Of a DNA stretch of 64,000 bases, positions 8,989 through 62,751 are shown piece by piece. Within the stretch, counting starts at the first letter, position 1, and each line of letters opens with the position of its first letter. Source of the stretch: a virus; UHGV virus genome UHGV-0209617, one strand, 5' to 3'. Under the pieces are notes generated by a model. The model had not been told where the DNA came from and made no database searches. It saw only the letters and a list, made by a program, of their open reading frames with translations. The position numbers and the translations under genes were made by a program.

Positions 8989-9231
8989 ATGAGCGTTGTA
9001 GTAAAAAAAATAGGTGATATGTCTGTAAAAGTAATCAGTGCAGACGATATTGCTTCAATCCGCCGGGAAATAAGTAGTAGAGATATGGAAATGGATAAAA
9101 GAGCTGTTGTAGCCGTAAATTCAGCTATAAATAGGGCGCAGGTATGTAATAAGCCTATAGCTAAATATGATTTGGCAAGTGGAAGGGCATATTTAGAATA
9201 TGCTGATGGGAGTAGGGATTATGTCAACTAA
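8989..9231 (+). CDS. Hypothetical small protein (80 aa) overlapping the start of the zeta-like kinase pseudogene
   Basis: ORF with an extended -10-like TGgTACAAT upstream; its 3' end overlaps the ATG at 9221 by 11 nt. Confidence 0.5.
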   Translation: MSVVVKKIGDMSVKVISADDIASIRREISSRDMEMDKRAVVAVNSAINRAQVCNKPIAKYDLASGRAYLEYADGSRDYVN

Positions 9232-9773
9232 GAAGCAGATGATATTGGTGTTAGTTGGTTCCAATGGCTCTGGAAAAAGTACTATTACCAAATTCTTTGA
9301 TGTTGTTGGCGAATATACTAATGCTGATGATATTGTAGCAGCCACTGGAATGGATAATCTTGCTGCAGCACGAATGGCTGATGAAAAATGTATTCTGCTA
9401 TAAAAGAAAAACGGGATTTTACCTTTGAAACGGTACTATCTTCAGAGTATAAGTTTGATATATTAAATAAGGCTAAAGCAGAGGGTATTTTATTAAGTGT
9501 GTATTTGTATTGACCGTGAATCCCTACATAAATGTAGCTAGAGTGCAGATGCGTGTAGCTAATGGTGGTCATTTTGTGGAAAAAGATAAGATTTTATCAA
9601 GATACTATAAATCATTGACAAATATAAAGAAACTGTTAGAAATATGTGATATTATGCATGTTTATGATAATACCGTTACCCCAACGCGTATCATACGAAA
9701 GCATAAGGATGATATTTCTACTTTTGCTAGTGAAATATGGAGCGAAGAGCAGATTCTAAAACTTATGTATTAA
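9221..9773 (+). pseudogene. Zeta-toxin-like P-loop kinase gene disrupted by at least two frame changes
   Basis: Walker A LVGSNGSGKST in the first segment, ...RDFTFETVLSSEYKFDILNKAKAEGILLSVYLY in a second frame, ...RVQMRVANGGHFVEKDKILSRYY in a third; stops at 9403 and about 9511. Confidence 0.55.
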
Positions 9774-12642: not shown

Positions 12643-14298
12643 ATGATTAAGGAGGTAACGGAGATGGTTGCGAAAAATTATGGTGTTGTTTACACACCGA
12701 ATAGACTGGCTGAGTTCGCAGCAGAACTTTTATATAGAGAGGCAGCAGAAACTAATACAGAAATAAAGTCGGTATTGGATCCTGCGTGTGGCGAATGCGC
12801 ATTGCTATGTGCTGCAAAGAAATATTTGAATGGTAATGTGAAATATTTGGGAATTGATGTCGATAAAGAAGCAATAATGAATGTTGAGGATGATTTTGAA
12901 ATTCTTTATAATGATTCAATTCTTCCGCGAAATGTAAAAAAACAGACGGCAGAATATTGGAAGAGCAAGATGCCAGTAATATCTGCTATAATTGCAAATC
13001 CACCGTGGAGTTCCGAAAAAATATATGTGCGAGAAGAATTGCAGAGTGCCGGTTTCTCGTTGACCACAGGACAATATGATAGCTTTGTGCTATTTATTGA
13101 GTTGGCATATAATCTGCTTGATGATGGAGGATACTTTTCGTTTATTATCCCCGATTCGTTATTTGATGCACAAAACGAAAAACTAAGAAGATTTTTGACT
13201 GAAAAGATGCAAATCAAAGTGATTGCCAGACTTGGAGAGAAGATTTTTGAAGAAGTGAATAGAGCAACTACTGTTATTGTTTGCAGAAAAGAAAAGCCAG
13301 TCAAAGATTCTGTCACCCACTGTTTCAGACTTACTACGGAAGAAAGAAGAAAGTTTTTGAATTCGAATCAGAGTTTGTTAAACTTTTACAACGAAGATGT
13401 GCATGATGTGTTGCAGGGGCGATTTGCTGAAAACGCTGCCTGTAACTTTGACGTTGATACGCGCACTGATGAAGAGGCATTGTTGGCTAAAATTAAGAAG
13501 CAGTCTATAAGTTGGGAGGATATATTCATTTTTGGTCGAGGTGTTGAGATATCCAAAACAGGAAAGGTCGTATTTTGTCCTTCGTGTGGTTATGCCCAAG
13601 GGTATAAAAAATCACAAATGGCTGAAGGAAAAAAAGAATGTACGAACTGTGGCAGTGAGATATCGGTTACTACGGCAAGTGTTCAAAATGTTATTTCACA
13701 AAGTCAAACGCCACAGACTGTTCAGATATATGTTGGAGAGAATGTTCGGAGATATGGAATAACAGGAGAATGCTATATCAAACCCAACATTCCCGGAATC
13801 AATTATAAAAATCGTGCGATGTACAACCCACCAAAACTGTTGGTGAGAAAGACTGGACTTGGAATATATGCATCGATTGATTATACGGGAAGCATGACAA
13901 GTCAGGCTGTATATATTTTGAAATTTAAAAACAGTCAACATAAGGCTCCGTTGGAATATTATCTGGCATTGCTTAACTCACGAGTGGTCTACTATTTTTA
14001 TTTGAAAGTATATGGAGAAAATGAATGGAAGTCCCATCCGTACTTTACGAAACAGATTATTTATTCTCTGCCTATTAGAGAATATGAGGATAGTGAGTTA
14101 GATAAACAGATCATTAAAGTGGCATCGGAATTGGCGCATAAATATGAATATGTCAAGGATGTTCAGCTTGAGAAGTTGGTAATGAAAAAGTATGGTCTGT
14201 CAGAGACCGAAAGCAATATGGTTTATGGTGAGATGAATCGTCTGCCTGACTTGAGTGCGATTAACAATATGAAAGTTGAGGTGGAAGCGAATGTATAG
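12643..14298 (+). CDS. N6-adenine DNA methyltransferase, gamma-class order (motif I then NPPW), with zinc ribbon and C-terminal recognition domain; probable start ATG at 12664
   Basis: VLDPACGECALL (motif I-like), IIANPPWS (motif IV), CPSCG...CTNCG zinc ribbon; AAGGAGGT 8 nt before the ATG at 12664. Confidence 0.85.
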   Translation: MIKEVTEMVAKNYGVVYTPNRLAEFAAELLYREAAETNTEIKSVLDPACGECALLCAAKKYLNGNVKYLGIDVDKEAIMNVEDDFEILYNDSILPRNVKKQTAEYWKSKMPVISAIIANPPWSSEKIYVREELQSAGFSLTTGQYDSFVLFIELAYNLLDDGGYFSFIIPDSLFDAQNEKLRRFLTEKMQIKVIARLGEKIFEEVNRATTVIVCRKEKPVKDSVTHCFRLTTEERRKFLNSNQSLLNFYNEDVHDVLQGRFAENAACNFDVDTRTDEEALLAKIKKQSISWEDIFIFGRGVEISKTGKVVFCPSCGYAQGYKKSQMAEGKKECTNCGSEISVTTASVQNVISQSQTPQTVQIYVGENVRRYGITGECYIKPNIPGINYKNRAMYNPPKLLVRKTGLGIYASIDYTGSMTSQAVYILKFKNSQHKAPLEYYLALLNSRVVYYFYLKVYGENEWKSHPYFTKQIIYSLPIREYEDSELDKQIIKVASELAHKYEYVKDVQLEKLVMKKYGLSETESNMVYGEMNRLPDLSAINNMKVEVEANV

Positions 14299-15349
14299 AT
14301 ATATAGGAAACAAATCAAAGCTGACTCCATACATTCTTGATAGGGTGGAACAGCTTATTGGAAAAACAGGAATTGTTGCTGACATTATGGCTGGAACAGG
14401 AACTGTGGCATTAGAATTGAGAAAAGCAGGTTATTCGGTTATCGCATCTGATGTAATGACCTATTCGTACCATCATTTGATGGTTAATCTTTGCTTAGAT
14501 TCAGCTCCTTCTTTTTCTGGGCTTGTGAATCATGGAGCAATAGGCAAGAATGAGGTGGATGCATATGGTGCAATCCTGACTTATTTAAATTGCATTGAAC
14601 CCAAAGAAGGTTTTTTCTTCAAGGAATTTTCTCCGGGTGGAACACCGCAGAATGGTTGCGACCCGAGAAAATATTTCACTACGGAAAATGCAAAGAAAAT
14701 TGATGCGATTAGAGAAAAAATAAATGAGTGGATTGATAATGGATATGTGAGCAAAGCTGAAGAATCGCTTTTAAAACATACTCTTATTATGGCAGTAAAC
14801 GAGGTTGCCAATATATCTGGAACTTACGGATATTTTTTGGCTGATTTCAAAAAGAATGCCAATGCACAGATTGATTTAAAACCTGTGGAATTTTGTTCTG
14901 TGAATTCAACTGGTCACATGGTAAAATTGGGATTTGCTGAAAATTTAGCTGCAACAATTACAGTTGATTTGTGCTACATCGACCCTCCGTATATGAAGAG
15001 ACAGTATGCTGCGAATTATCATATTCTGGAAACCATTGCACGAGGAGATTTCCCTGATGCTGTTGGTAAAAGTGGCTTGCGTGACTGGTGGGAGCAGCAC
15101 TCTAAATTGTGTACCAAAACACGAGGATTACAATCGTTTGAAAAGATATTAGGTGATATGCATTGCCCGAAATTTCTGATTAGCTACAGTGAGGATGGTT
15201 TGTTTACGCTGGGGCAATTAGAAGAATGTTTTAGCAAGTTTGGAACTGTTGACGTTCAAGAAATTGATTACAATCGATTTAGAAGCAATGATAGCAAGTT
15301 GCCTAAAAAACTGAAGGAATATTTGATTTCTATAGAAAGGCAGGTATAA
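14291..15349 (+). CDS. D12-class (Dam-like, alpha-order) N6-adenine DNA methyltransferase
   Basis: RYIGNKSKL N-terminal motif, ADIMAGTGTV (motif I), CYIDPPYM (motif IV); ATG overlaps the upstream stop (ATGTATAG). Confidence 0.85.
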   Translation: MYRYIGNKSKLTPYILDRVEQLIGKTGIVADIMAGTGTVALELRKAGYSVIASDVMTYSYHHLMVNLCLDSAPSFSGLVNHGAIGKNEVDAYGAILTYLNCIEPKEGFFFKEFSPGGTPQNGCDPRKYFTTENAKKIDAIREKINEWIDNGYVSKAEESLLKHTLIMAVNEVANISGTYGYFLADFKKNANAQIDLKPVEFCSVNSTGHMVKLGFAENLAATITVDLCYIDPPYMKRQYAANYHILETIARGDFPDAVGKSGLRDWWEQHSKLCTKTRGLQSFEKILGDMHCPKFLISYSEDGLFTLGQLEECFSKFGTVDVQEIDYNRFRSNDSKLPKKLKEYLISIERQV

Positions 15350-15353
15350 GTGA

Positions 15354-17024
15354 ATGGAGTGCATTGAAAGAATATTTTACAGAAAGATTAATCCTTCTGA
15401 TTTCAAAAAGTTGTATGATATTGACAAACCAGAAGGTGGCGGTGGTCAGACATACTTGGAAGCCGCTGGTATTTCAAATGAAAAAATCGTTGATTTCCTT
15501 TCCTATGCGGAGGTTACAAACAGTCCTTTGCCAGATGAAACAAGGTCTGTTTATACATTCAATGCCTATGTTTTGGGCGATTCAAAGGGTAAATGTTCGT
15601 TTGTAGAATTTGCACCTCGCAAAGGAAGAAATAACTATCGTATAAGCCGTCAGAACATGAAATATAAACATCCGGCATGGAGTTTGGATAATGGATTTCC
15701 CGAACCATCAAAAGGTGATGATGGCGAATACACATCTGCAGGCGATTTTGTGGGAATCATTGATAATCTTGTTATTCTTATCATAAGAACTACAAATCGG
15801 CGTTATTATGCAGGTTTTGTAAATATAGCGACAATGCCAGAGAACTGGCCACACAATATTGGCTTAGAGGGCATTTTTAGTGGTGAACGCAGAGATGTAC
15901 TAAAAATGGATGCGTATAAACTACAGTTTGTTAATGATGCCTGTAATCCATTCGGTGATTATGTCCCAACAATCGAAGAATGTAATCGAGCGACTACTGG
16001 TTGCAATGTGCTTTTGTACGGAGTTCCCGGAGCAGGAAAGAGTTGGACAATTGAACACGAATATTGTGCCGATGAAGGGTGTATGGAGCGATTGGTTTTC
16101 CATCCGGATTATATGTATTCGGATTTCGTTGGACAAATTTTGCCTGTAGTAAGGGACGATGACAAGGTTCGTTATGAGTTTACGCCGGGTCCGTTTACCA
16201 AATTATTAAAAAAAGCATATTGGAATACAGAACAGTCTTTTTACCTTATAATAGAAGAAATAAATCGTGGTAATGCACCAGCGATATTCGGTGAAATATT
16301 TCAGCTTTTGGATAGAAAAGATGAAGACGAAATAGATGAAAATAGGGAGATTCTCTACAAAAAAGGCACAAGTGAGTATGGAATAACAAATGCCAATATT
16401 GCACGAATCGTTTATGGCGATGAAAACCATAAGGTTCGAATTCCTGCAAATATGTCTATTTTGGGTACAATGAATACTTCTGACCAAAATGTTTTTACAT
16501 TAGACACAGCATTTCAGAGAAGATGGATTATGAGAATGATTCCGAATTCATTTGATAACCATAAGTTCGCAGACAAGAAGATTTTGGATACTGATATTTC
16601 CTGGAGACAGTTCTGTGAAGCAATTAATGAGGAAATTTTGCGTAGAAACAACATCACATCTTCTGAGGATAAGCGACTTGGGGCATATTTTATCTCGGCT
16701 TCGGATTTGGAGATGAAACCAATCACAGACGGGATGAGCGAAAAAGAAAAAATCCAAGTGGAGCATAGCAACAGCAGATTTGCAGAAAAAGTATTGAAAT
16801 ATTTATGGGATGATGCTTTCAAATTTTCCCATCAAGATACATTTAACACAAGACAGTTTGGTAGTCTTGAAAAAGTTATCGAAGGCTTTATGAATCCTGC
16901 CAAGCCTAAAAATGAGCGTTTTCGTGTATTCAATGAGAACCTTCGTAAAATGATTTTGGATGGAGTAACAGCAGAATCAAACGAGGTTTCTGATGATGAC
17001 AGCGAAGGCTCACAGGAATCTTAA
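15354..17024 (+). CDS. McrB-like AAA+ GTPase restriction subunit with an N-terminal domain of about 200 aa that I cannot assign
   Basis: LLYGVPGAGKSW (Walker A), LIIEEINRGNAPAIFGEIFQLLDR (McrB-type IDEINRAN-like motif), ILGTMNTSDQN (NTxD-type motif). Confidence 0.85.
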   Translation: MECIERIFYRKINPSDFKKLYDIDKPEGGGGQTYLEAAGISNEKIVDFLSYAEVTNSPLPDETRSVYTFNAYVLGDSKGKCSFVEFAPRKGRNNYRISRQNMKYKHPAWSLDNGFPEPSKGDDGEYTSAGDFVGIIDNLVILIIRTTNRRYYAGFVNIATMPENWPHNIGLEGIFSGERRDVLKMDAYKLQFVNDACNPFGDYVPTIEECNRATTGCNVLLYGVPGAGKSWTIEHEYCADEGCMERLVFHPDYMYSDFVGQILPVVRDDDKVRYEFTPGPFTKLLKKAYWNTEQSFYLIIEEINRGNAPAIFGEIFQLLDRKDEDEIDENREILYKKGTSEYGITNANIARIVYGDENHKVRIPANMSILGTMNTSDQNVFTLDTAFQRRWIMRMIPNSFDNHKFADKKILDTDISWRQFCEAINEEILRRNNITSSEDKRLGAYFISASDLEMKPITDGMSEKEKIQVEHSNSRFAEKVLKYLWDDAFKFSHQDTFNTRQFGSLEKVIEGFMNPAKPKNERFRVFNENLRKMILDGVTAESNEVSDDDSEGSQES

Positions 17025-17040
17025 AGCGAGGTGAGCGACA

Positions 17041-18321
17041 TTGGATTTAGGCTTAAACTTAAAAGTTAAATGTCATGTGAATAAAAATGGTGATGGCGAT
17101 AGGTTTGTCGGGATTAAGGCTGATGCTAATCAAGCAATGGTCTATTTTCCAATGGGGTATCGCCTGCCAGACAATGAAGAAGATATTAGGGATGATATTC
17201 TAAAATTGATTTCTGTATTAGCTGAGTTTACGGATTCAAAAGACAAGGTATTGGCTATGCAGAAATTTGAAGCACCACAGTCTGTGAATTTTCCAATCAA
17301 TGCCTATATGAATATTATCCGATACTATTTGGAACAACGTTCATATTACACAGAAAAGGATCCTATTCTAAAGACGAGTGACAGAGGAAAAATCGACTTT
17401 GCAGCATCTTTGCGTAGAAATGTTAGCTTTTTTCAAGAAGATGGAACTCCGTTTTTTGATAAATATACAGTAAAAGGGTCAACTCCTAATGATAAAAATT
17501 TAATAACTATGATTCACAAATACTGTGTGCATGAAAGTTTTGCTCAGATGGGTTGGCTGTTTATGCCGGATGTCCCACAAGATCCACATATTGAACGAAA
17601 CATTCCGCTTTTCCTCAGTGTACTGAAGAAAAAATTGGCAGTCACGCATCTTGAAAAGGATATTCTGCTATTTGAAGCAATGATTTCTATGCTGGAATAT
17701 TTGGATGAGAAAAGTGACGATAAACAATACTATTTTGGAACAGATAGATTTGAATATGTGTGGGAAAAACTGATAGATGCAGTGTTTGGCATAAAAGAAA
17801 AGAATGATTATTTTCCACGAACCTCTTGGAAACTAAACTATGGTGACCAACGAAGAAATTATGCATTAGAGCCGGACACCATAATGCTTTGTAATGGAAA
17901 AATCTATGTCATTGATGCAAAGTATTATAGATACGGTGTAACCGGTACACCTTCGCATTTGCCGGAATCATCATCTATCAACAAGCAGATTACATATGGT
18001 GAGTACATATATAATCATAAGAAATTTAAGGATGTATATGGTGATGATGTTCCTGTGTATAACGCATTCCTTATGCCGTATAACAAACAGGATAATCCAT
18101 TTCATATCAATGAGTATTTCGCCAATATTGGTGAGGCTGATAGTGACTGGAAATATGGCAATCATAATTATGAACGGGTGCAAGGAATTGTAGTTGATAT
18201 TCGTTTCTTGATGAACAATTACTATGGTTCGCACAAGAGTAAAATTATTAAGATGGCGAAGCTCATCGAGGAAGCCCTGCAGGAAAATGCAGATACGCTT
18301 CCAGAAGAAAAGACTGAATAA
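17041..18321 (+). CDS. McrC-like PD-(D/E)xK nuclease subunit (TTG start)
   Basis: ALEPDTIMLCNGKIYVIDAKYY gives PD...D-x-K; position immediately after the McrB-like gene; GAGGTGA 7 nt before the TTG. Confidence 0.75.
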   Translation: MDLGLNLKVKCHVNKNGDGDRFVGIKADANQAMVYFPMGYRLPDNEEDIRDDILKLISVLAEFTDSKDKVLAMQKFEAPQSVNFPINAYMNIIRYYLEQRSYYTEKDPILKTSDRGKIDFAASLRRNVSFFQEDGTPFFDKYTVKGSTPNDKNLITMIHKYCVHESFAQMGWLFMPDVPQDPHIERNIPLFLSVLKKKLAVTHLEKDILLFEAMISMLEYLDEKSDDKQYYFGTDRFEYVWEKLIDAVFGIKEKNDYFPRTSWKLNYGDQRRNYALEPDTIMLCNGKIYVIDAKYYRYGVTGTPSHLPESSSINKQITYGEYIYNHKKFKDVYGDDVPVYNAFLMPYNKQDNPFHINEYFANIGEADSDWKYGNHNYERVQGIVVDIRFLMNNYYGSHKSKIIKMAKLIEEALQENADTLPEEKTE

Positions 18322-32222: not shown

Positions 32223-32325
32223 CTGCCAAACTATAGTATAATGTAAACTGTGAAAAGAATATAATCATAGAGCCATTGGAGAGCAATCTTCGATGGCTTT
32301 TCTTATGCCCGAAAGAGGTGAAGCC

Positions 32326-32697
32326 ATGCCAAGGAAACCAAAGCGTCCCTGCAGATACAGCGGATGCCCGAAGCTGACAGAAGGATACTATTGCGATGAA
32401 CATCAGAAGCTAATGGACAGGCAGTACGATAAATACCGCCGCCCGGCTGAAGCCAAGAAAAGGTATGGCTATCAGTGGAGAAAGATAAGAGCTGCGGTAC
32501 TGGCAAGAGAGCCGTTCTGTCTGGAGTGCCGAAAGGCTGGAAGAATAACCAAGGCCACAGAGGTGCATCATGCTGTGCCATTAGACCACGGCGGTACCAA
32601 CGAGGATAGTAATTTGATACCGCTCTGCAAGCCGTGTCACTCCCGCATAACTGTGGAGATGGGGGATAGATGGCATAAGAAAAAGCTGCCCATATGA
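32326..32697 (+). CDS. HNH endonuclease (packaging-associated)
   Basis: CxxC...EVHHAVPLDHGG...CKPCH; AGGTGA SD. Confidence 0.8.
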   Translation: MPRKPKRPCRYSGCPKLTEGYYCDEHQKLMDRQYDKYRRPAEAKKRYGYQWRKIRAAVLAREPFCLECRKAGRITKATEVHHAVPLDHGGTNEDSNLIPLCKPCHSRITVEMGDRWHKKKLPI

Positions 32698-32778
32698 GCA
32701 GCTTAAAATAAATCGGAATGGCTTCCTGTGCGAGATAGAAAGAGCATTAAATCATTACCATCAATTCGATAGATGATA

Positions 32779-33060
32779 TTAAGCATCACCTAATACCTCG
32801 TTGCGTAATTCCTTGAATGAAGAATAACGTTTATACTTTTCCGGATTAGCTTTCATTGTATAGTATTCATTCATGGCATCGAGTGTTTCCGGATTAGGTA
32901 CTGAACGCTTGATGTCGAAGGGAATGCGCTGTTCACGAACAGCCTGCCGAAGGAATATTGTGACAGCTGTAGTCAAATCCATACCAAGGTCTGAAAAAAG
33001 ACTTTGTGCATTGAGCTTCAACTGAGGGTCTAATGCTATGTTTGTACTTACTTTAGCCAT
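32779..33060 (-). CDS. RelB/DinJ-family antitoxin-like protein with no adjacent toxin gene
   Basis: MAKVSTNIALDPQLKLNAQSLFSDLGMDLTTAVTIFLRQAVREQRIPFDI matches the RelB/DinJ fold; strong SD AGGAGGTG; opposite strand to all neighbours. Confidence 0.7.
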   Translation of the reverse strand: MAKVSTNIALDPQLKLNAQSLFSDLGMDLTTAVTIFLRQAVREQRIPFDIKRSVPNPETLDAMNEYYTMKANPEKYKRYSSFKELRNEVLGDA

Positions 33061-33119
33061 ATCTATGCACCTCCTATTAAGGTTAATTGTAGCATAATAT
33101 GTGCAAAAAGAAAGCATGA

Positions 33120-33129
33120 CATGCGCATG
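33120..33129. promoter_or_regulatory. Perfect palindrome CATGCGCATG upstream of the DinJ-like gene (operator candidate)
   Basis: Read directly, about 60 nt upstream of the minus-strand ATG. Confidence 0.35.
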
Positions 33130-33252
33130 ATAAGCATAAAAATAACGGGAGGGGGTGTCTGATTCTCTACAGATGTACAAATGTAGACCGGGGGGCTCCC
33201 TTCACGCGCAAAAAAGGCGATTTCAAAAGGGTAAAAGAAGGGAGGAGTTGGA

Positions 33253-33804
33253 TTGCCAACAAAATCCAACAACACCGGCGGCCGTGGAGGTAAAAGACTA
33301 GGTGCCGGACGCAAGAAAAAAGCACTGGCAGACAAGCTGGAAACAAATAATCCAGGTGGCCGCCCGCTGGTGGTTTTAGACATACCAGAATTTGAAGGAA
33401 TGGATATGCCACCGCCCAGGGAATTTCTATCCGCCCAGCAGCGTGATGGAAGTGACCTGCAAGCAAATGAGATATATGAGGAAACATGGGAGTGGCTGAA
33501 GAAAATCGGCATGGCAGGAAAGGTAAGCAAGCAGCTTCTTGAACGCTATGCAATGTGCGCTGCCCGCTGGGTGCAGTGCGAGGAAATGACCAGCCGAATG
33601 GGTATGCTTTCTAAGCACCCTACAACGGGAAAACCTATCCCAAGTCCATTCATAAACATCGGGATAAACTACATGAATCAGGCTAACAGGCTGTGGGGAG
33701 AAATCTTCCAGCTTGTTAAGGAGAACTGCTCGACAGGCTATGAGGGAGCCAATCCAACAGACGATGTGATGGAGCGGCTGCTCAGAGCAAGGAGCGGAAG
33801 GTAA
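33253..33804 (+). CDS. Phage terminase small subunit (P27-like), TTG start
   Basis: Basic glycine-rich N-terminus NTGGRGGKRLGAGRKKK and position before terL; GGAGGAG SD. Confidence 0.75.
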   Translation: MPTKSNNTGGRGGKRLGAGRKKKALADKLETNNPGGRPLVVLDIPEFEGMDMPPPREFLSAQQRDGSDLQANEIYEETWEWLKKIGMAGKVSKQLLERYAMCAARWVQCEEMTSRMGMLSKHPTTGKPIPSPFINIGINYMNQANRLWGEIFQLVKENCSTGYEGANPTDDVMERLLRARSGR

Positions 33805-33849
33805 TATGCTAGTGCAGAATTGTACTGGCTATTTTTTATGGAGGCAGCA

Positions 33850-35127
33850 ATGGCGAATACAGAACGATTTGAAAAAGTACATATAGACAAGCTGGTGCCC
33901 TATGCCAGAAATGCCAGGACACACAGCAAGGAGCAGGTCATGGAACTGAGAGCGTCCTTAAGGGAGTTCGGATTCGTTACTCCCGTCCTGGTAGATGAAA
34001 ACTATACAATCCTCGCGGGGCACGGACGTGTCAGGGCTGCAAAGGAAGAAGGCATTACCGAGGTGCCATGTGTATTTGCGAACCAGCTGACGGATGCACA
34101 GAAGAAAGCCTATATCCTAGCAGATAACCGTCTTGCGCTTAATGCGGGATGGGATAACGAGATGCTGGCAGTTGAACTGGCTGATCTGCAGGGCGAGGCT
34201 TTTGATATCGGCCTTTTGGGATTTGATGACAAGGAGCTGGAGAAGCTCCTTGGCAATAACGATGAGGCAGAGGATGATGATTTCGATGTTGATGCCGAAC
34301 TTCAAAAACCATGCTTCAGCCGCCCAGGAGATATCTGGAAACTCGGCAGGCACAAGGTTATCTGTGGTGACAGCACTGACCCGAATGTTTACACTTCTCT
34401 TCTTGGAGATGTGAAAGTAAACCTAGTCTGCACTGACCCGCCGTATTTTGTAGCCTTCGAGAATAAATCAGGGAAAATCCAGAATGACAATCTGGGTGAT
34501 GAGGAAGGATATAAATTCCTCAAATCCGCTATGGATAATTTCCATAATGCTATGGCAAAGGATGCCAGCATTTATGTGTTTTATGCTACATCCAAAGCCA
34601 GGGTATTCCATGATGCTTTTGAGGATGCAGGGTTTAAGGTTGGAGCAGGACTTGTCTGGAAGAAGGATCGCCTGGTGCTGACCCGCACGGATTGGAAGTA
34701 CATCCATGAGCCAATTATCTTCGGCTGGCGTAAGGACGGAAAGCATATCTGGTACGGAGATCAGAAGCAGACTACTGTATTTGAGTTTTCCCGTATCAAG
34801 GATTCTGGCAAGGATGGATACGGTCATCCTACCAGCAAGCCTGTACCTCTCATTGCTTATCTCATTAAGCAGTGCACCCAGACTAACGGTATTGTGCTGG
34901 ATGGCTTCTTGGGTTCTGCCAGCACCCTTATTGCCTGTGAGCAGCTTGAAAGAAACTGTTATGGCGTAGAGCTTGAGCCGAAGTTCGTGGATGTGGCTGT
35001 AAACAGATACATCGCAGCCCATGATGGCTCCGCCCAGGATGTTGTCCTTATCCGAGATGGAAAAGAATACAGCTACGAAGAGTCCCAAGCGATGATGGAG
35101 GATAGTGCTGAAAATGACGAACAATAA
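33850..35127 (+). CDS. ParB-like nuclease domain fused to a DNA methyltransferase (N6-adenine or N4-cytosine)
   Basis: N-terminal ParB-N pattern (VPYARNARTHSKEQV...GHGRVRAAKEEG); C-terminal LVCTDPPYF and HPTSKPVPL methyltransferase motifs. Confidence 0.85.
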   Translation: MANTERFEKVHIDKLVPYARNARTHSKEQVMELRASLREFGFVTPVLVDENYTILAGHGRVRAAKEEGITEVPCVFANQLTDAQKKAYILADNRLALNAGWDNEMLAVELADLQGEAFDIGLLGFDDKELEKLLGNNDEAEDDDFDVDAELQKPCFSRPGDIWKLGRHKVICGDSTDPNVYTSLLGDVKVNLVCTDPPYFVAFENKSGKIQNDNLGDEEGYKFLKSAMDNFHNAMAKDASIYVFYATSKARVFHDAFEDAGFKVGAGLVWKKDRLVLTRTDWKYIHEPIIFGWRKDGKHIWYGDQKQTTVFEFSRIKDSGKDGYGHPTSKPVPLIAYLIKQCTQTNGIVLDGFLGSASTLIACEQLERNCYGVELEPKFVDVAVNRYIAAHDGSAQDVVLIRDGKEYSYEESQAMMEDSAENDEQ

Positions 35128-35246
35128 CGGAGTCGATACTTTAATCGTTTAAAGTCGAGCCACTAGCTGGTGTGAAAGTCAAAGTATACAGTATCTTCTG
35201 CCCTAAGAGAGAAAAAGCCGCCCGCAGGCGGCAGGGAGAAGATGAG

Positions 35247-35420
35247 TTATTCTCCGTAGAGAATGAACTTCACATAAGCGGCACGGTCTTCCTCAATGAA
35301 GCATACCAGCTCGTAGTAGTGGCTTTCAAAGGCCAGCCGCTGTACATAATTGGTATCAAGCATATTGGTCTTGCCGGTGTCCCTGATTGCCAGAATCTGT
35401 TCCTTGATTTTCTCTGTCAT
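35247..35420 (-). CDS. DUF5049-like small protein
   Basis: MTEKIKEQILAIRDTGKTNMLDTNYVQRLAFESHYYELVCFIEEDRAAYVKFILYGE; SD AAAGGAGG on the minus strand. Confidence 0.65.
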   Translation of the reverse strand: MTEKIKEQILAIRDTGKTNMLDTNYVQRLAFESHYYELVCFIEEDRAAYVKFILYGE

Positions 35421-35596
35421 TGAAATGACCTCCTTTGTTTTTGGTATGTACATATATCACTCTAAAGAGGACAAATAGCAAGTCATTTCTTTGGAATATG
35501 TAATAAATATTTTTACAAAAAATATCTACAAAACCCTTGCTATTACTGGCGTTTAGAGTGATTAATGTAGTACCGAAATTAAAGGAGGCAAACAAA

Positions 35597-36298
35597 ATGA
35601 TTTACAAGCTGAAAATGGAAAACGGCACCCGCAAGGAGCTGGCAAAGGAAATCGGAAAGATTATCGCCCAGGAAGCAAAGTACATGGGAGTTCCAAGCTG
35701 CGGCTACAGGATCGGGGACATGGTCTTGGATAAGGATTGGAACCTTGAGGTTCCGGATGGCATGGATGCGCGGGAGCTTCTGATGGCACTAACAGACCTT
35801 GGCTTCTACGAGCCGAAGGAAGAAATACCCGCAAAGACAGAAGAAGAGCCAACACAGGCGGCCACAGCCCCTCTTACGGGTCTTGTGGTAAAGATTCCGC
35901 TGAGTGCCATGACCACGGAAGCAATCATAAACCTTACGGATTTGCTTATCGCAAAGGACAAGCTGCTCTGCCACGCATTTGGCATAGAAAGCCTTGACCT
36001 TATCCGAAACGAGGAGAACATAGAGTTCAGATGGTTTGAAGGGATGGATATCGGAGCGGAGGAAGCCAATGCTTACATGACCTTTATTTCCAAGCTCTGC
36101 GATTTGGCAAGAACCCTCAAGAGGGTAAACGGTAAGGAAAAAGAAGTGCCGAATGAGAAATACGCCTTCAGATGTTTCCTGCTGAGACTTGGCTTTGTCG
36201 GCAAGGAATACAAGGAGCAGAGAAAAATCCTTTTAAGTAAGCTCAGCGGTTCATCCGCATTCAGGGATGGGAGGAAAAAAGATGAAGTATCCGAATAA
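35597..36298 (+). CDS. Protein whose C-terminal ~100 aa are homologous to the C-terminal region of the adjacent amidoligase; lacks the amidoligase N-terminal catalytic part
   Basis: IEFRWFEGMDIGAEEANAYMTF...NEKYAFRCFLLRLGFVGKEYKEQRKILLSKLSGSSAFR versus VEFRLFNSTLHAGELKAYIQF...[38 protein letters not shown]. Confidence 0.7.
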   Translation: MIYKLKMENGTRKELAKEIGKIIAQEAKYMGVPSCGYRIGDMVLDKDWNLEVPDGMDARELLMALTDLGFYEPKEEIPAKTEEEPTQAATAPLTGLVVKIPLSAMTTEAIINLTDLLIAKDKLLCHAFGIESLDLIRNEENIEFRWFEGMDIGAEEANAYMTFISKLCDLARTLKRVNGKEKEVPNEKYAFRCFLLRLGFVGKEYKEQRKILLSKLSGSSAFRDGRKKDEVSE

Positions 36299-36500
36299 GG
36301 AATTGCTGGAAAGTCTCAGAAAGGAATACCCAAATGGGTGCAGGGTGGAGCTGGTGCAGATGGATGATGCACAGGCACCGCCGCCCGGCACGAAGGGAAC
36401 GGTAAAGCACGTGGATGATATCGGCACCATCCATATCAGCTGGGATACCGGCTCAGGACTTGGGGCGGTTTACGGTGAAGATATCATCAGAAAGGTCTAA
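36282..36500 (+). CDS. DUF4314-like small phage protein
   Basis: MKYPNKELLESLRKEYPNGCRVELVQMDD...GTKGTVKHVDDIGTIHISWDTGSGLGAVYGEDIIRKV. Confidence 0.6.
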   Translation: MKYPNKELLESLRKEYPNGCRVELVQMDDAQAPPPGTKGTVKHVDDIGTIHISWDTGSGLGAVYGEDIIRKV

Positions 36501-36575
36501 TGGAAAGGCGGGGATAAAACCCCGCCAGCCCAGTAAAATAGTGTAAAAATAATCCATAAATCTCGCATAAATGAC

Positions 36576-36604
36576 TTGATAATAATACAGATGTACGGTA
36601 ATAT
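36576..36604 (+). promoter_or_regulatory. Near-consensus sigma-A promoter (TTGATA, 17 bp, TAATAT) upstream of the amidoligase gene
   Basis: Hexamers and spacing read directly; the same architecture and flanking sequence recur at 38144-38172. Confidence 0.6.
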
Positions 36605-36653
36605 ACACACAACAAAAGGGAACACCCCACCAAGAGAAAGCGAGGAAAACAAA

Positions 36654-37541
36654 ATGGATTTAAGAGCACAGACCTTCGGAGTAGAGATTGAGATGACCGG
36701 CCTTACAAGAAACAGGGCCGCAAAGGTAATCGCCGCATACTTCGGAACGGAGGCAACCTACTTCGGAGGCGGATACGATGAGCACCACGCAAAGGACAGC
36801 AAGGGCAGAATCTGGAAGGCCATGAGCGATTCAAGCATCAGGGCAGAAAAGAAGGACGGCTCCTACGCAAGCGACCTTTACAAGACCGAGGTGGTAACCC
36901 CAATCCTCAGATACGAGGACATTGAAGACCTACAGGAAATCCTGAGAAAGCTCAGAAAGGCAGGGGCGATGGTAAACAGCAGCACAGGGATTCACATCCA
37001 CATCGGAGCGGAGAATTTCACCCCGGCTACCCTTTGCAACCTTCTGAAGAACATCCGAAGCAAGGAGGACATTCTTTACAGAGCCATTCAGGTCAAGGAA
37101 AACCGCGCAAGGTACTGCAGAAAAACAAACCAGAAGCTCATCGAGATGATTGAGGCACACCGCCCCAAGACAAAGGAGCAGCTTGCAGACCTTTGGTATG
37201 CAGAAGCACCATACGGAAGAAACAGGCATTACAACGACAGCAGATACCACGGACTTAACCTCCACGCATACTTCACTAAGGGAACGGTCGAGTTCAGGCT
37301 TTTCAACAGCACCCTCCACGCAGGCGAATTGAAAGCCTACATACAGTTCTGCATGGCGGTTACAGCAAAGGCCATAAACACCAAGAAGGCAAGCGCGAAG
37401 CCAAGCATCAGCGACAACGAAAAATACACTTTCAGATGCTGGCTCCTCCGCCTGGGCCTTAACGGAGAAGAATTCAAGACCTGCAGAACCCACCTTTTGA
37501 AGCACCTCGAAGGAAACAGCGCCTGGAGGCACCTTTCCTAA
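36654..37541 (+). CDS. Amidoligase-family enzyme (phage-associated amidoligase)
   Basis: N-terminal FGVEIEMTG and overall pattern consistent with the Amidoligase_2 family; GGCT-like gene follows. Confidence 0.7.
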   Translation: MDLRAQTFGVEIEMTGLTRNRAAKVIAAYFGTEATYFGGGYDEHHAKDSKGRIWKAMSDSSIRAEKKDGSYASDLYKTEVVTPILRYEDIEDLQEILRKLRKAGAMVNSSTGIHIHIGAENFTPATLCNLLKNIRSKEDILYRAIQVKENRARYCRKTNQKLIEMIEAHRPKTKEQLADLWYAEAPYGRNRHYNDSRYHGLNLHAYFTKGTVEFRLFNSTLHAGELKAYIQFCMAVTAKAINTKKASAKPSISDNEKYTFRCWLLRLGLNGEEFKTCRTHLLKHLEGNSAWRHLS

Positions 37542-37638
37542 AACAAACCGGCCTACCAGCCCCGAAAGGGGCCTTTCGGTGGTAGAAGCACCTAGCTTCT
37601 GAATAAACCGATTTGCTTTAGGAAGGGAGTCTTCAACA

Positions 37639-38097
37639 ATGAAAAGAAAAATCTATCTGGCCTACGGAAGCAACATGAGCCTTTTGCAGATGTACCACCG
37701 TTGCCCTGATGCAGAACCGATTGGCAAGGGCATCATCAAGGATTACCGCCTGATGTTTAAGGGAAGTAAGAGTGGCAACTATGCGACCATCGAATACGAG
37801 GAAGGACGGCAGGTGCCTGTGGTAGCCTGGGCAATCAGTGAAAGGGATGAAAAATGCCTTGACCGCTATGAAGGATTTCCGAGCTTTTATGTGAAGGACA
37901 CCATCGCATTTGAATATATCGGTGATCGCCCAGGAAGAAGGATGAAGGATGAGGGCATGGTTTATGTGATGCCGCCAGATGAGACTGTTCTGGGGCTTCC
38001 AAGTGGTCACTACATGGATGTCCTTCTTGAAGGCTACCATCGCTTCGGATTTAATTCCAGAATCCTTTGGGAAGCCTACGAATACAGCGATGAGTGA
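37639..38097 (+). CDS. Gamma-glutamylcyclotransferase-like (GGCT/AIG2-like) protein
   Basis: N-terminal YLAYGSNMS motif typical of the GGCT fold; GGAAGGGAG SD. Confidence 0.75.
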   Translation: MKRKIYLAYGSNMSLLQMYHRCPDAEPIGKGIIKDYRLMFKGSKSGNYATIEYEEGRQVPVVAWAISERDEKCLDRYEGFPSFYVKDTIAFEYIGDRPGRRMKDEGMVYVMPPDETVLGLPSGHYMDVLLEGYHRFGFNSRILWEAYEYSDE

Positions 38098-38143
38098 GCC
38101 GATAAAGTATACAAAAATATCCTCCGAATGTGTGAAGTATAAC

Positions 38144-38172
38144 TTGATATAAGTACGAATGTACGGTAATAT
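38144..38172 (+). promoter_or_regulatory. Second copy of the TTGATA-17-TAATAT promoter, upstream of an unlisted small ORF
   Basis: Identical -35 and -10 and near-identical spacer and downstream sequence (GTACGGTAATATACACACAAC) to the copy at 36576. Confidence 0.6.
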
Positions 38173-38220
38173 ACACACAACGAAAGGGGAACAGCCCTAA
38201 AGCAAAAGGAGGAAACCACA

Positions 38221-40207: not shown

Positions 40208-40230
40208 AGCCATGAAAGGAGATGATACCT

Positions 40231-40473
40231 ATGATGGTTGATACTAATAATCTTGTTTCAATAACTGAGGCAAACCAGAATTTTTCAAAGGTCGCTCGTA
40301 TGGTAGATGAGTCAGGTTCTGTTGTAATCCTAAAAAATAATGTACCTAAATATTTAGTAGTTAATTTTGATGTGGCTGATAGCGTGGATTATACTTCAGA
40401 TGAAGAGCTGCTCATGGTATCAGATAAATTTATGAAGAAAAATAAAAAGGCGTATGAGGTATTGGCAAAATGA
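40231..40473 (+). CDS. phd: Phd/YefM-family antitoxin
   Basis: VSITEANQNFSKVARMVDESGSVVILKNNVPKYLVV; stop overlaps the Doc start (ATGA). Confidence 0.8.
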   Translation: MMVDTNNLVSITEANQNFSKVARMVDESGSVVILKNNVPKYLVVNFDVADSVDYTSDEELLMVSDKFMKKNKKAYEVLAK

Positions 40474-40844
40474 AGCGAATATCTAAACGTCAGGTATTAT
40501 TGCTGCATAATAAGCTGATAGAGGAAAGTGGCGGCTCTGATGGTATCAGGGAAGATGGACTCTTGGAATCAGCTTTGAATGCGCCTTACCATGAGTTTGC
40601 AGGTTTTTCAAACTATCCCACGATAGAAGAAAAAGCTGCCAGGCTCGGTTATGGTATAATCAAGAACCATCCATTTGTTGATGGGAATAAAAGAATTGGT
40701 ACCCATATTATGCTTCTGCTTTTGTATATCAATGGTGTTGAGTTGGTATATGAACAGGAGGAGCTGATAGACATAATTCTACAAGTTGCATCAGGACAAG
40801 CTGATTATGAAGAGTTATATGCTTGGGTTTTAGATCATGAATAA
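40470..40844 (+). CDS. doc: Doc (death-on-curing) Fic-family toxin
   Basis: Fic motif HPFVDGNKRIG. Confidence 0.85.
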   Translation: MKRISKRQVLLLHNKLIEESGGSDGIREDGLLESALNAPYHEFAGFSNYPTIEEKAARLGYGIIKNHPFVDGNKRIGTHIMLLLLYINGVELVYEQEELIDIILQVASGQADYEELYAWVLDHE

Positions 40845-60203: not shown

Positions 60204-60228
60204 ATAAGCACGGTTGGAGGTGATTGCC

Positions 60229-60810
60229 ATGAATGACATTGAAAAGCTTGTTGATGAGTCAGGAATGATTACAACTAGAGATATAGTGAAAAATAATCAG
60301 TCAAAAGTAGAATTTTACAATTACCTGAGAAAAAATGATTTTGAACAAGTATCGCGTGGTATATATGCTTCTAAGGATGCGTGGGTAGACCCATTATTGA
60401 TTGCGCATATGAGATGTCCTAAAGCGGTGATCTCTCATGATGTGGCACTTCATTATTATGGCTTGGTTGATAGAGAGCCTTCAGCTCCAACGCTTACTAT
60501 TTATTCTGGATACAACACAAGCAGGTTAAAAGAAGCAGGGTACAAGGTGTTTTTCGTGAAGAAGGAATACCTTGATGCTGGCAAAGAAGAGGTTGTAAAT
60601 TTTGATGGCAACATCATTCCTATGTATAACCTTGAAAGAACGATGTGTGACCTTGTCAGAAACAGAAGCAGCTTTGAGATTCAAGATTTCAATGCAGCTA
60701 TAAAAGCGTATGCCAGAAAAAAGGAAAAGAATCTTACAAGGCTATTTGAATATGCGAAAATGCTTAGGGTGGAAAAATTGATGCGGTCATATATGGAGGT
60801 GCTTTTGTAA
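60229..60810 (+). CDS. abiEi: AbiEi-family antitoxin / transcriptional regulator
   Basis: N-terminal DNA-binding-like region ending ...VSRGIYA; paired with a DUF1814-type nucleotidyltransferase; GGAGGTGA SD. Confidence 0.75.
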   Translation: MNDIEKLVDESGMITTRDIVKNNQSKVEFYNYLRKNDFEQVSRGIYASKDAWVDPLLIAHMRCPKAVISHDVALHYYGLVDREPSAPTLTIYSGYNTSRLKEAGYKVFFVKKEYLDAGKEEVVNFDGNIIPMYNLERTMCDLVRNRSSFEIQDFNAAIKAYARKKEKNLTRLFEYAKMLRVEKLMRSYMEVLL

Positions 60811-61664
60811 TGATCTTATCAGCTGCACAGGCAAGAGGCAGGATTAAGAATATTGTGGCAAAAAATGGTGCGGACCCAAGACTGCTTATGAGAATTTATA
60901 TGATGGAGAGATTTTTGGAACGAGTATCCCTTTCTGCATACAAGGATAATTTCATCATTAAGGGCGGAATGCTTATAACATCATTGGTTGGTATTTCCAT
61001 GCGGTCAACTATGGATATTGACACAACTGTAAAAGGCCAGGATGTAAGCATGGAAAATGCACAGCGTATTGTTAAAGAAATTGCTGACATTCAGATTGAT
61101 GATGGGGTTTCTTTTGTGATTAAAGATGTAGAAAACATAATGGATGAGATGGAATATCCAGGAATCAAATTTCACTTGGAAGTGTTATTAGACAAAATGG
61201 TTACGCCAATAAAGATTGATGTTTCTACGGGCGATGCAATTACACCCAGAGCGATTGAATATAATTACAAGCTTATGCTTGAAGATAGAGAAATCGGGCT
61301 GTGGAGCTATAATCTGGAAACAATCCTTGGGGAAAAATTACAGACGATACTTGTACGTGAACGTGCAAACACCAGAATGAGAGATTTCTATGATATATGT
61401 GTATTGGTAGAAATGTATGACAGTAAGATAAATACTGTCAATTTCAAAGCAGCATATGAGGCGACCTGTAGAAAAAGAGGGTCATTACACTTATTTGGTA
61501 ATGAAGGAAAAATACTGGATATAATAGCTGGTGAAAGTAAAATGATTGATAGATGGACAAATTATCAGAAGAAGTTTTCTTATGCATCTGATATCAGTTT
61601 TGAGAAAGCTATTCAGTGTGCAAAGGGGTTAATTTCATTCTTGAAAAATAGTACCGGAAAATAA
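60810..61664 (+). CDS. abiEii: AbiEii-family nucleotidyltransferase toxin (DUF1814-type)
   Basis: 284 aa directly coupled to the AbiEi gene; typical gene pair. Confidence 0.75.
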   Translation: MILSAAQARGRIKNIVAKNGADPRLLMRIYMMERFLERVSLSAYKDNFIIKGGMLITSLVGISMRSTMDIDTTVKGQDVSMENAQRIVKEIADIQIDDGVSFVIKDVENIMDEMEYPGIKFHLEVLLDKMVTPIKIDVSTGDAITPRAIEYNYKLMLEDREIGLWSYNLETILGEKLQTILVRERANTRMRDFYDICVLVEMYDSKINTVNFKAAYEATCRKRGSLHLFGNEGKILDIIAGESKMIDRWTNYQKKFSYASDISFEKAIQCAKGLISFLKNSTGK

Positions 61665-62526: not shown

Positions 62527-62751
62527 ATGCAGAAATCAGATCTTGGGGAACGGGAATACCTTAGCAAGAAGTATACTGCCGTCTTCTTCGGACTCAGTCC
62601 CAGGCGGCTTGAGCGATTCCTCAAAGCAGATGACTATGATTTTGTTGTGTATTATAAGAAAAGAACACTGATATTAAGGGAGGCCTTCAACAGATATCTC
62701 TGGAGGAATCCTGATGTAAGGGAGATGTTGAAACGTGGCAAGACGAGGTGA
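62527..62751 (+). CDS. Second excisionase-like HTH protein
   Basis: YLSKKYTAVFFGLSPRRLERFLK; start chosen at the ATG 8 nt after GGAGG. Confidence 0.55.
   Translation: MQKSDLGEREYLSKKYTAVFFGLSPRRLERFLKADDYDFVVYYKKRTLILREAFNRYLWRNPDVREMLKRGKTR

What the first reader, a model, noticed from the sequence alone, without database searches (positions are those of the whole stretch)
32779..33129. Orphan RelB/DinJ-like antitoxin on the opposite strand inside the packaging module
An intact DinJ-like gene with a strong SD sits antisense between the HNH endonuclease and terS, with a perfect CATGCGCATG palindrome upstream and no toxin gene next to it. Stand-alone antitoxin homologs carried by phages are candidates for neutralising host toxin-antitoxin abortive-infection systems.
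Basis: partly seen in the sequence, partly recalled or inferred. Interest (0 to 1): 0.5.

Follow-up and report, generated by a model that had tools for sequence, protein, structure and literature searches.

The report
Antitoxin left after toxin gene deletion
This small prophage gene is the intact antidote half of a DinJ-YafQ toxin-antitoxin pair whose toxin gene was recently gutted by a 189-base in-frame deletion, so it is a decaying two-gene module and not a purpose-built stand-alone anti-defence gene.

Summary
The gene is real. Window 32779..33060 (-) encodes 93 aa behind a GGAGGTG ribosome-binding site and scores as a full-length RelB/DinJ antitoxin (TIGR02384, 62.3 bits against a cut-off of 45.65). 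It lies antisense between an HNH endonuclease and terS.

It is not a born orphan. Eighteen related phage loci carry a complete pair in the same slot: a 93-aa DinJ and a 90-aa YafQ overlapping by 8 nt. The window has a clean 189-nt (63-codon) in-frame deletion inside yafQ. A 27-codon stub remains (32703..32786 -), overlapping the dinJ stop. The stub lacks the equivalents of E. coli YafQ H50, H63 and D67.

The same deleted allele occurs on at least 24 independent human-gut contigs at 99.7-100% identity, so it is real and young. The two closest full-length relatives carry Tyr at the catalytic H87 position, a second independent toxin inactivation.

The CATGCGCATG palindrome is present but is neither rarer than chance nor conserved. 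75 of 75 more distant relatives have HNH and terS adjacent with no cassette, so the pair is an accessory insert.

Verdict: an ordinary toxin-first decay of a type II module. A trans-acting antidote role is not excluded but has no support here.

The parts
32779..33060 (-). dinJ-like antitoxin CDS, 93 aa, intact
   Evidence: Translation. TIGR02384 62.3 bits, covering residues 1-88 of the protein and positions 1-84 of the 85-position profile. Pfam RelB. All 37 columns that are at least 90% conserved among 39 toxin-paired homologs are kept.
33068..33074 (-). Shine-Dalgarno GGAGGTG, 7 nt before the ATG
   Evidence: Read from the sequence. Conserved in L001 and L186.
33086..33122 (-). Promoter-like region. 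It holds an extended -10 (TATGcTACAAT, 33096..33086), the alternative pair ATGTCA-17-TATTAT (33122..33094), and the conserved block TTTTGCAYATAYTATG between them.
   Evidence: Consensus scan. In the upstream alignment L002-L013 have a perfect TTGACA-17-TATAAT promoter at the homologous place. The spacer/-10 block is the only part conserved across sublineages. Function is inferred.
33120..33129 (.). Perfect palindrome CATGCGCATG. It overlaps the scanned -35. It is lineage-specific and not statistically unusual.
32703..32786 (-). yafQ remnant, 27 codons plus stop: MLNI|IYRIDGNDLMLFLSRTGSHSDLF. Its ATG overlaps the end of dinJ.
   Evidence: Translation. tblastn match to residues 67-90 of the L001 toxin. 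Alignment A1.
32774..32775 (-). Junction of the 189-nt (63-codon) in-frame deletion that removed YafQ residues 5-67
   Evidence: A 189-column gap in alignment A1. The blastn break between L001 5286 and 5476 agrees. The exact junction is ambiguous by about one codon.
32683..32704 (-). Terminator-like hairpin AAGCTGCTCATATGGGCAGCTT followed by a T run. It closes the dinJ(-yafQ) unit and overlaps the HNH stop codon on the other strand.
   Evidence: Scan. Identical hairpin right after the intact toxin in L001 and L186.
32293..32697 (+). HNH endonuclease (flank)
   Evidence: Pfam HNH 47.3 bits.
33253..33804 (+). Small terminase, Terminase_4 (flank)
   Evidence: Pfam 27.8 bits against cut-off 24.7.

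Best explanation
The gene is the antitoxin half of a type II DinJ-YafQ toxin-antitoxin cassette. The cassette sits as an accessory, antisense 'moron' between HNH and terS in one branch of a large family of gut Bacillota siphovirus-type prophages.

In the lineage of this window a single 189-nt in-frame deletion removed codons 5-67 of yafQ. Those codons hold the ribosome-binding basic patches and the equivalents of catalytic H50, H63 and D67. What remains is a 27-codon stub, still positioned for translational coupling.

dinJ, its ribosome-binding site, its promoter-like region and the shared terminator survive untouched.

Inferred mechanism today: DinJ is still made from its own promoter in the lysogen. 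It dimerises through its N-terminal ribbon-helix-helix and represses its own promoter. Its C-terminal toxin-wrapping helices have no partner in cis. The gene is therefore most likely a recent relic of toxin-first decay. Any neutralisation of YafQ toxins brought in by sibling phages or encoded by the host would be a by-product, not a demonstrated function.
For: Shown:
- Family assignment. The only PDB sequence hits are DinJ chains, and the only fold hits are DinJ of the V. cholerae DinJ-YafQ complex (weak).
- Thirteen of 13 sibling loci reached through three homologs (L001-L013), plus five further metagenome loci (L186, L191, L201, L203, L204), have terS<-[dinJ->yafQ->]<-HNH with a full-length 90-aa toxin.
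- That toxin is a bona fide YafQ: HP0892 at E 4e-22 and E. coli YafQ at 7.5e-16.
- Alignment A1 shows a clean 189-nt gap, with both ends of yafQ and the terminator retained.
- The deleted residues include the equivalents of H50, H63 and D67 (mapping). These are needed for YafQ toxicity and catalysis (PMC4652777).
- The same allele is on at least 24 contigs from independent assemblies, 99.7-100% identical over up to 12.3 kb.
- No other YafQ-like ORF exists in the 64-kb window.
- 75 of 75 IMG/VR relatives found by terS lack the cassette. HNH and terS are 104-179 nt apart in 70 of them, and the other five carry different antisense cargo, including an Abi_2 gene.
- The nearest full-length alleles, L186 and L001, have Tyr at the H87 equivalent and His or Cys at the R83 equivalent. 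This is an independent toxin inactivation.
- Toxin decay with intact dinJ recurs elsewhere in the family.

Inferred: expression, autorepression and the lack of present function.
Against: - The antitoxin shows no decay at all. All 37 conserved columns are kept, and the ribosome-binding site, -10 and terminator are intact.
- The toxin-less lineage is widespread in human gut samples.
- Toxin inactivation happened at least twice in this small sublineage.
- In Lancefieldella/Atopobium, 36 of 44 genomes are toxin-less and dinJ is intact in every one, with omega about 0.05.

These points are compatible with selection for an antitoxin-only state. None is decisive. The window lineage is too young to test. 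The window-versus-L186 divergence mostly pre-dates inactivation. The Lancefieldella dinJ haplotypes are shared between toxin-bearing and toxin-less loci.
Confidence: 0.74

Rival explanations
1. Selected orphan antidote. After toxin loss, DinJ is kept because it neutralises YafQ-family toxins in trans. The toxins could come from sibling phages or prophages carrying the intact cassette (anti-addiction, or escape from exclusion), or from host DinJ-YafQ systems acting as abortive infection.
For: - The antitoxin is fully intact.
- Sibling phages with cognate-type toxins at 63-68% toxin identity are common in the same habitat.
- A truncated portal of a second related prophage lies in the same window, so the host meets such phages.
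- Toxin inactivation is repeated while dinJ is retained.
- There is precedent for phage orphan antitoxins (PMC11825919) and for the anti-addiction idea (PMC7354431).
Against: - The orphan state here is very young.
- No relative holds dinJ as a conserved orphan in this slot.
- Type II antitoxins are usually specific to their cognate toxin (stated in the abstract of PMC12301738, listed).
- The gene is antisense to the late operon and built like a lysogeny-expressed moron, not an early anti-defence gene.
- The selection test in Lancefieldella is confounded.
- No host YafQ could be examined.
Confidence: 0.2
2. Co-opted transcription factor. The ribbon-helix-helix protein now regulates other phage or host genes. 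The adjacent terS/late region is one candidate target, since the two promoters face each other in a 192-nt spacer. E. coli DinJ is reported to regulate genes outside its own locus.
For: - The abstract of PMC4996492 (listed) calls E. coli DinJ a global regulator.
- The dinJ promoter region abuts a strongly conserved block upstream of terS.
Against: - 75 of 75 relatives run the HNH-terS junction without any such protein.
- No second copy of the conserved operator-like block was looked for or found.
- The explanation is not needed to account for any observation.
Confidence: 0.05
3. Artefact: the deletion is an assembly or sequencing error and the toxin is really intact.
For: None beyond the general possibility.
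Against: The identical junction is present on at least 24 contigs from different studies and assemblers.
Confidence: 0.01

Closest known systems
E. coli DinJ-YafQ (PDB 4ML0, 4Q2U), V. cholerae DinJ-YafQ (9LEW), H. pylori HP0892-type YafQ toxins
   Same: - The same two families in the same order, antitoxin first with overlapping ORFs, in sibling loci.
- The DinJ N-terminal region aligns to E. coli DinJ.
- The sibling toxin aligns end to end with HP0892 and E. coli YafQ, with H50, H63, D67, H87 and F91 equivalents conserved in the family consensus.
   Different: - In the window the toxin is reduced to 27 codons.
- Sequence identity of DinJ to the solved proteins is low (E about 0.002).
- The location is a phage HNH-terS junction, not a chromosome.
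- No LexA-type control was examined.
Degraded TA loci that leave orphan antitoxins, for example the Klebsiella survey summarised in PMC7354431
   Same: An intact antitoxin sits next to recognisable remains of its toxin. Loss of the toxin first is the tolerated order of decay.
   Different: Here the event can be dated as very recent, and it can be mapped to the nucleotide against intact sister alleles.
Phage-encoded stand-alone antitoxins used as counter-defence (T4 Dmd against RnlA/LsoA; phage NADAR/DarG-like enzymes against DarT1, PMC11825919)
   Same: A phage genome carries an antitoxin-type protein with no toxin of its own.
   Different: Those genes are conserved as orphans across phage relatives and act on host toxins. 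This one is orphan by a fresh deletion. Its relatives carry the pair or nothing, and no target toxin is known.
Anti-addiction modules (chromosomal CcdA of Erwinia chrysanthemi neutralising F-plasmid CcdB; reviewed in PMC7354431)
   Same: A resident antitoxin could blunt a homologous toxin arriving on another mobile element.
   Different: This is not demonstrated here. The resident element is itself a prophage.
Prophage-stabilising type II TA (ParE/CopA of CP4So, cited in PMC12548467)
   Same: This is the likely original role of the intact cassette: a lysogeny-expressed TA carried by a prophage.
   Different: With the toxin gone, this role is lost. The prophage still has Phd-Doc and AbiEi/AbiEii modules.

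Membership tests
RelB/DinJ antitoxin family (TIGR02384 / PF04221) | Full-length profile match above the curated cut-off | tested here: met
   TIGR02384 62.3 bits against 45.65, covering residues 1-88 of the protein and positions 1-84 of the 85-position profile. PF04221 32.8 bits against 22.4.
RelB/DinJ antitoxin family (TIGR02384 / PF04221) | N-terminal ribbon-helix-helix DNA-binding domain followed by C-terminal toxin-binding helices | tested here: inconclusive
   The monomer AlphaFold model has helices at 12-24, 29-42, 57-71 and 82-92, but mean pLDDT is only 64. The only Foldseek PDB hits are V. cholerae DinJ chains at E 0.02. The sequence alignment to E. coli DinJ covers residues 8-63.
RelB/DinJ antitoxin family (TIGR02384 / PF04221) | Family-conserved residues retained | tested here: met
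   37 of 37 columns that are at least 90% conserved among 39 toxin-paired homologs are kept.
Complete type II DinJ-YafQ toxin-antitoxin module | Adjacent co-oriented YafQ/RelE-fold toxin gene with catalytic residues | tested here: not met
   Only a 27-codon stub remains. Residues 5-67, including the H50, H63 and D67 equivalents, are deleted. The feature is met in 18 sibling loci.
Complete type II DinJ-YafQ toxin-antitoxin module | Antitoxin binds and neutralises the toxin and autorepresses the operon | not testable with these tools
   Needs co-expression, pull-down and EMSA experiments.
Phage stand-alone antitoxin used as counter-defence (Dmd-like or NADAR-like logic) | Gene conserved as an orphan across related phages | tested here: not met
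   Non-deleted relatives with the gene all have a full-length toxin ORF. 75 of 75 terS relatives lack both genes.
Phage stand-alone antitoxin used as counter-defence (Dmd-like or NADAR-like logic) | Neutralises a host-encoded toxin during infection | not testable with these tools
   The host genome beyond the window is not available. There is no YafQ-like ORF in the 64-kb window.
Known anti-phage defence system component (PADLOC) | Match to a PADLOC model | tested here: not met
   0 families matched.

The most novel reading that the evidence does not exclude
Toxin-less DinJ is a selected state, not a way-station to loss. Under this reading, prophages and bacteria of this family repeatedly discard YafQ but keep DinJ as a trans-acting antidote. 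The antidote would disarm the DinJ-YafQ cassettes of competing sibling phages or of host abortive-infection systems. Three things would then be explained: the two independent toxin knock-outs in this sublineage, the wide spread of the deleted clone, and the intact low-omega dinJ in 36 toxin-less Lancefieldella/Atopobium genomes.
Probability: 0.2. Interest if true: 0.55.

Novelty: new member of a known kind. Interest (0 to 1): 0.25.

Why it matters
The main value is corrective. An apparently stand-alone phage antitoxin turns out to be a freshly broken toxin-antitoxin pair, so orphan antitoxins in phage genomes should be checked against sister alleles before being called counter-defence genes.

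There are two smaller positive results. The HNH-terS junction of this widespread gut phage family is an accessory-gene hot spot that can hold TA or Abi cargo. The locus also offers a natural allelic series for testing whether an orphaned type II antitoxin protects against homologous toxins. The series is: intact toxin, point-inactivated toxin (H87-equivalent changed to Tyr), and toxin with a 63-codon deletion.

Tried and rejected
- **Palindrome as operator.** Rejected as evidence. CATGCGCATG is one of 38 perfect 10-mers in the window and is not conserved in any relative. The block TTTTGCAYATAYTATG overlapping the -10 is the better operator candidate, but it is untested.
- **Doc as the missing partner.** The Fic/Doc toxin at 40470..40844 has its own overlapping Phd-like antitoxin at 40222..40473.
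- **Another YafQ or RelE-like toxin in the window.** An HMM built from 39 intact toxins, run against all six-frame segments of at least 30 aa, found nothing better than E 3.9. This HMM would miss distant RelE/ParE relatives, and the stub itself was too short for the segment list.
- **Selection test inside the deleted lineage.** Impossible, because the contigs are 99.7-100% identical.
- **Window versus L186/L001 dN/dS.** dinJ omega is 0.06 at dS 0.30, and the toxin stub omega is about 0.1. Both genes were therefore constrained for most of the divergence, and both inactivations are recent. The test is uninformative about the orphan state.
- **Lancefieldella/Atopobium orphans as a proxy.** Omega is about 0.05 within both deletion alleles. 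However, identical dinJ haplotypes occur with full, A-type and B-type loci. Recombination or recurrent deletion therefore confounds the test.
- **Close phage genomes in INPHARED.** None were found. The best megablast hit covers 11% of the query at 71% identity. Protein hits are at most 48% identical.
- **Structure.** The monomer model has low confidence, and the fold search gives only weak DinJ hits.

Full report
**1. The observation**

The minus-strand ORF listed as 32779..33180 has an internal ATG at 33060. GGAGGTG precedes it at 33068..33074. From that ATG the product is 93 aa: MAKVSTNIALDPQLK...NEVLGDA.

- It matches NCBIfam TIGR02384 (RelB/DinJ antitoxin) over its whole length, 62.3 bits against a cut-off of 45.65.
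- It matches Pfam RelB at 32.8 bits against 22.4.
- It matches phrog_2737, of unknown function, and no PADLOC model.
- The flanking plus-strand genes are an HNH endonuclease (32293..32697) and a Terminase_4 small terminase (33253..33804).
- A promoter-like pair (ATGTCA-17-TATTAT, 33122..33094) and a terminator-like hairpin (32704..32683) bracket the gene on the minus strand.
- CATGCGCATG is at 33120..33129.

The descriptive part of the finding is therefore correct. The palindrome is not remarkable, however. The window holds 38 perfect 10-nt palindromes, against 67 in shuffles.

**2. What surrounds it**

From about 20 kb to its right end, the window is a prophage.

- Replication and early genes: DUF2800/PD-(D/E)XK, family A DNA polymerase, VapE, HNH_3, SNF2 helicase.
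- Packaging region: HNH, [dinJ], terS, then a ParB-N6/N4 methyltransferase, DUF5049, amidoligase_2 and GGACT, then terL.
- A Phd-Doc pair, then portal, ClpP and an HK97-type capsid.
- Further downstream come tail genes (not scanned against Pfam), then an AbiEi/AbiEii pair and a Tn916-type tyrosine integrase at the right edge.

The public phage collection holds no close relative.

**3. The decisive comparison**

A search of the protein collection returned 486 homologs. Most are exactly 93 aa and 65-75% identical, and one cluster is 95% identical.

I looked up the genomic places of three of them. All 13 loci (L001-L013) show the same neighbourhood as the window: SNF2, a small ORF, HNH, then on the other strand two overlapping genes, then terS. 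The two genes are the 93-aa RelB/DinJ protein and a 90-aa protein hitting YafQ_toxin and ParE_toxin.

The sibling toxin is a clear YafQ. It aligns end to end with H. pylori HP0892 (E 4e-22) and with E. coli YafQ (E 7.5e-16).

Aligning the window against L001 (alignment A1) shows near-identity on both sides of a single 189-column gap that lies wholly inside the toxin gene. An independent blastn places the same break.

- 189 nt is 63 codons, so the frame is kept.
- The window retains ATGCTTAATATC, the toxin start, which overlaps the last dinJ codons.
- It also retains the last 23 codons and the terminator hairpin.
- Together these give a 27-codon ORF at 32703..32786: MLNIIYRIDGNDLMLFLSRTGSHSDLF.

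Using the alignment to E. coli YafQ, the deleted residues 5-67 contain the equivalents of H50, H63 and D67 and the N-terminal basic patches. H50, H63, D67, H87 and F91 are each needed for toxicity, and the basic patches are needed for ribosome binding (PMC4652777). The stub cannot be an active YafQ.

**4. The deletion is real and young**

The exact 93-aa protein is indexed in 32 blocks of the assembly collection. The 24 contigs that were read come from independent ENA and Logan assemblies of human gut samples. All ten loci fetched (L014-L023) carry the same stub. They are 99.7-100% identical to the window over up to 12.3 kb.

This excludes an assembly artefact. It also means the deleted lineage is a recent clone, so no test of selection after the deletion is possible within it.

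**5. The cassette is accessory**

A scan of IMG/VR with the window's terS returned 80 loci at 73-80% identity. HNH is in view in 75 of them, and none has dinJ or yafQ.

- In 70 loci, HNH and terS are 104-179 nt apart.
- The five with larger gaps carry other cargo, always antisense: an Abi_2 protein, a 210-aa protein, a 109-aa protein and a 125-aa protein.

The HNH-terS junction is therefore a slot for lysogeny-type accessory genes, and DinJ-YafQ is one such insert. A metagenome scan added five further distinct phage-slot loci, all with a full-length toxin ORF.

**6. A second, independent toxin knock-out**

The two closest full-length alleles are L186 (DinJ 96% identical) and L001 (95%). They are 98.9% identical to each other.

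- Both have Tyr where every other family member has the H87-equivalent His.
- They have His or Cys where the family has the R83-equivalent Arg.
- L186 also has Ser for the Pro of the PDW motif.

In E. coli YafQ, H87A abolishes cleavage. The window stub still has Arg and His at these positions, so the deletion and the point changes arose separately.

Window versus L186 gives dinJ dS 0.30 with omega 0.06. The 23 shared toxin codons give omega about 0.1. Both genes were therefore constrained for most of their divergence, and both inactivations are recent.

**7. State of the antitoxin**

All 37 alignment columns that are at least 90% conserved among 39 distinct toxin-paired homologs are kept in the window protein. 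The ribosome-binding site and the extended -10 (TATGcTACAAT) are in place.

The -35 hexamer is a perfect TTGACA in L002-L013. It is not recognisable in the window, L001 or L186.

The only upstream block shared by all sublineages is TTTTGCAYATAYTATG, which runs into the -10. From what is known of RHH antitoxins this is the more likely operator. That is an inference and was not tested.

A monomer AlphaFold model is of low confidence (pLDDT 64). It shows two N-terminal and two C-terminal helices. Its only PDB fold hits are DinJ chains of the V. cholerae DinJ-YafQ complex at E 0.02.

**8. Is an orphan DinJ ever kept on purpose?**

Toxin decay with an intact dinJ is common in this family.

- Among 80 species-representative genomes, 33 have an intact adjacent toxin and 47 do not.
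- Among 80 metagenome loci, 54 are intact, 22 are toxin-less or partial, and 4 contigs are too short to tell.
- In a chromosomal locus of Lancefieldella/Atopobium, 36 of 44 genomes carry one of two different internal deletions of yafQ. dinJ is intact in all of them, with omega about 0.05 at dS about 0.1.

That would be strong evidence for a selected orphan. However, identical dinJ haplotypes occur with full, A-type and B-type loci. Either the alleles recombine or the deletions recur, so constraint acting in toxin-bearing genomes cannot be separated out. I count this result as suggestive only.

**9. Mechanism and rivals**

Shown:
- The family of the gene.
- The former partner and the exact lesion that removed it.
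- The accessory nature of the cassette.
- The youth of the orphan state.

Inferred:
- DinJ is still transcribed in the lysogen from its own promoter and stops at the hairpin.
- It represses itself through its RHH domain.
- It has no cis partner for its C-terminal helices.

The most economical reading is toxin-first decay. This is the order expected because losing the antitoxin first would be lethal, and it is the commonest origin of orphan antitoxins in surveys (summarised in PMC7354431).

The main rival is a selected trans-antidote role against the YafQ of sibling phages or of the host. Precedents in principle include phage NADAR orphan antitoxins (PMC11825919), Dmd, and anti-addiction CcdA. 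That rival would also fit the repeated toxin losses, but nothing here requires it. I put it at about 0.2.

I put a co-opted regulator role at about 0.05. An assembly artefact is excluded.

**10. Verdict**

The gene is a genuine, intact DinJ-family antitoxin. Its 'orphan' status is the product of a recent 63-codon deletion in its YafQ partner. This is a new instance of a known kind of event. It has modest interest as a natural allelic series for testing trans-protection by orphaned antitoxins.

Noticed in passing
window 40222..40844: A complete Phd/YefM-like antitoxin (83 aa) overlaps by 4 nt a 124-aa Fic/Doc toxin. The pair is inserted between terL and the portal gene, so the same prophage keeps an intact type II TA module.
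   Followed up: partly
window 60214..61664: An AbiEi-like (weak hit) and AbiEii nucleotidyltransferase pair (type IV TA / abortive infection) lies near the right end of the prophage. It is followed by an HTH protein and a Tn916-type tyrosine integrase at 62735..end.
   Followed up: partly
window 1721..2212: A 163-aa ORF matches only the first third of the Phage_portal profile and resembles the N-terminus of the prophage's own portal (40890..). It is probably a remnant of a second, related prophage.
   Followed up: partly
window 12643..18321: A restriction-modification island lies just left of the prophage: N6_Mtase/Eco57I/TaqI_C methylase, D12 adenine methylase, AAA_5 protein and RE_LlaJI endonuclease, a LlaJI-like arrangement. 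Whether it belongs to the prophage is not established.
   Followed up: no
window 33820..38178: Several accessory genes sit between terS and terL: a ParB_N-N6/N4 methyltransferase, an antisense DUF5049 gene, amidoligase_2 and a GGACT gamma-glutamyl cyclotransferase-like gene. Sibling loci have an S-AdoMet synthetase-like gene and a cytosine methylase there instead.
   Followed up: no
L186 2775..3047 and L001 5275..5547: The closest full-length YafQ alleles carry Tyr at the H87 equivalent, His or Cys at the R83 equivalent, and in L186 Ser for the Pro of the PDW motif. These are probably already dead toxins next to an intact DinJ.
   Followed up: yes
L042-L094 (Lancefieldella/Atopobium chromosomal locus, dinJ at about 3001..3279): Two different internal deletions of yafQ leave a 42-nt or a 40-nt remainder before a conserved landmark. 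They segregate in 36 of 44 species-representative genomes. dinJ is always intact with omega about 0.05. Identical dinJ haplotypes occur with full, A-type and B-type loci, implying recombination or recurrent deletion.
   Followed up: partly
L158 1625..3000; L171, L156, L113/L114 at the HNH-terS gap: In five of 75 terS relatives the HNH-terS junction holds other antisense cargo: an Abi_2 protein (327 aa) and unknown proteins of 210, 109 and 125 aa. The slot is a hot spot for accessory genes.
   Followed up: partly
window 33130..33252: The spacer upstream of terS is strongly conserved across sublineages (GAAGGGAG..CGCAAAAAAGCGAAATC-like block). In the window, L001 and L186 it contains an inverted repeat TCTACA-N10-TGTAGA. 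It may be the cos or late-promoter region, but this was not analysed.
   Followed up: no
L014 9841..12171 and 9073..9366: In some members of the deleted lineage VapE is split into two ORFs and the TRASH-HNH_3 gene is truncated. Parts of this prophage clone are accumulating other lesions. The window copy has both genes intact.
   Followed up: no
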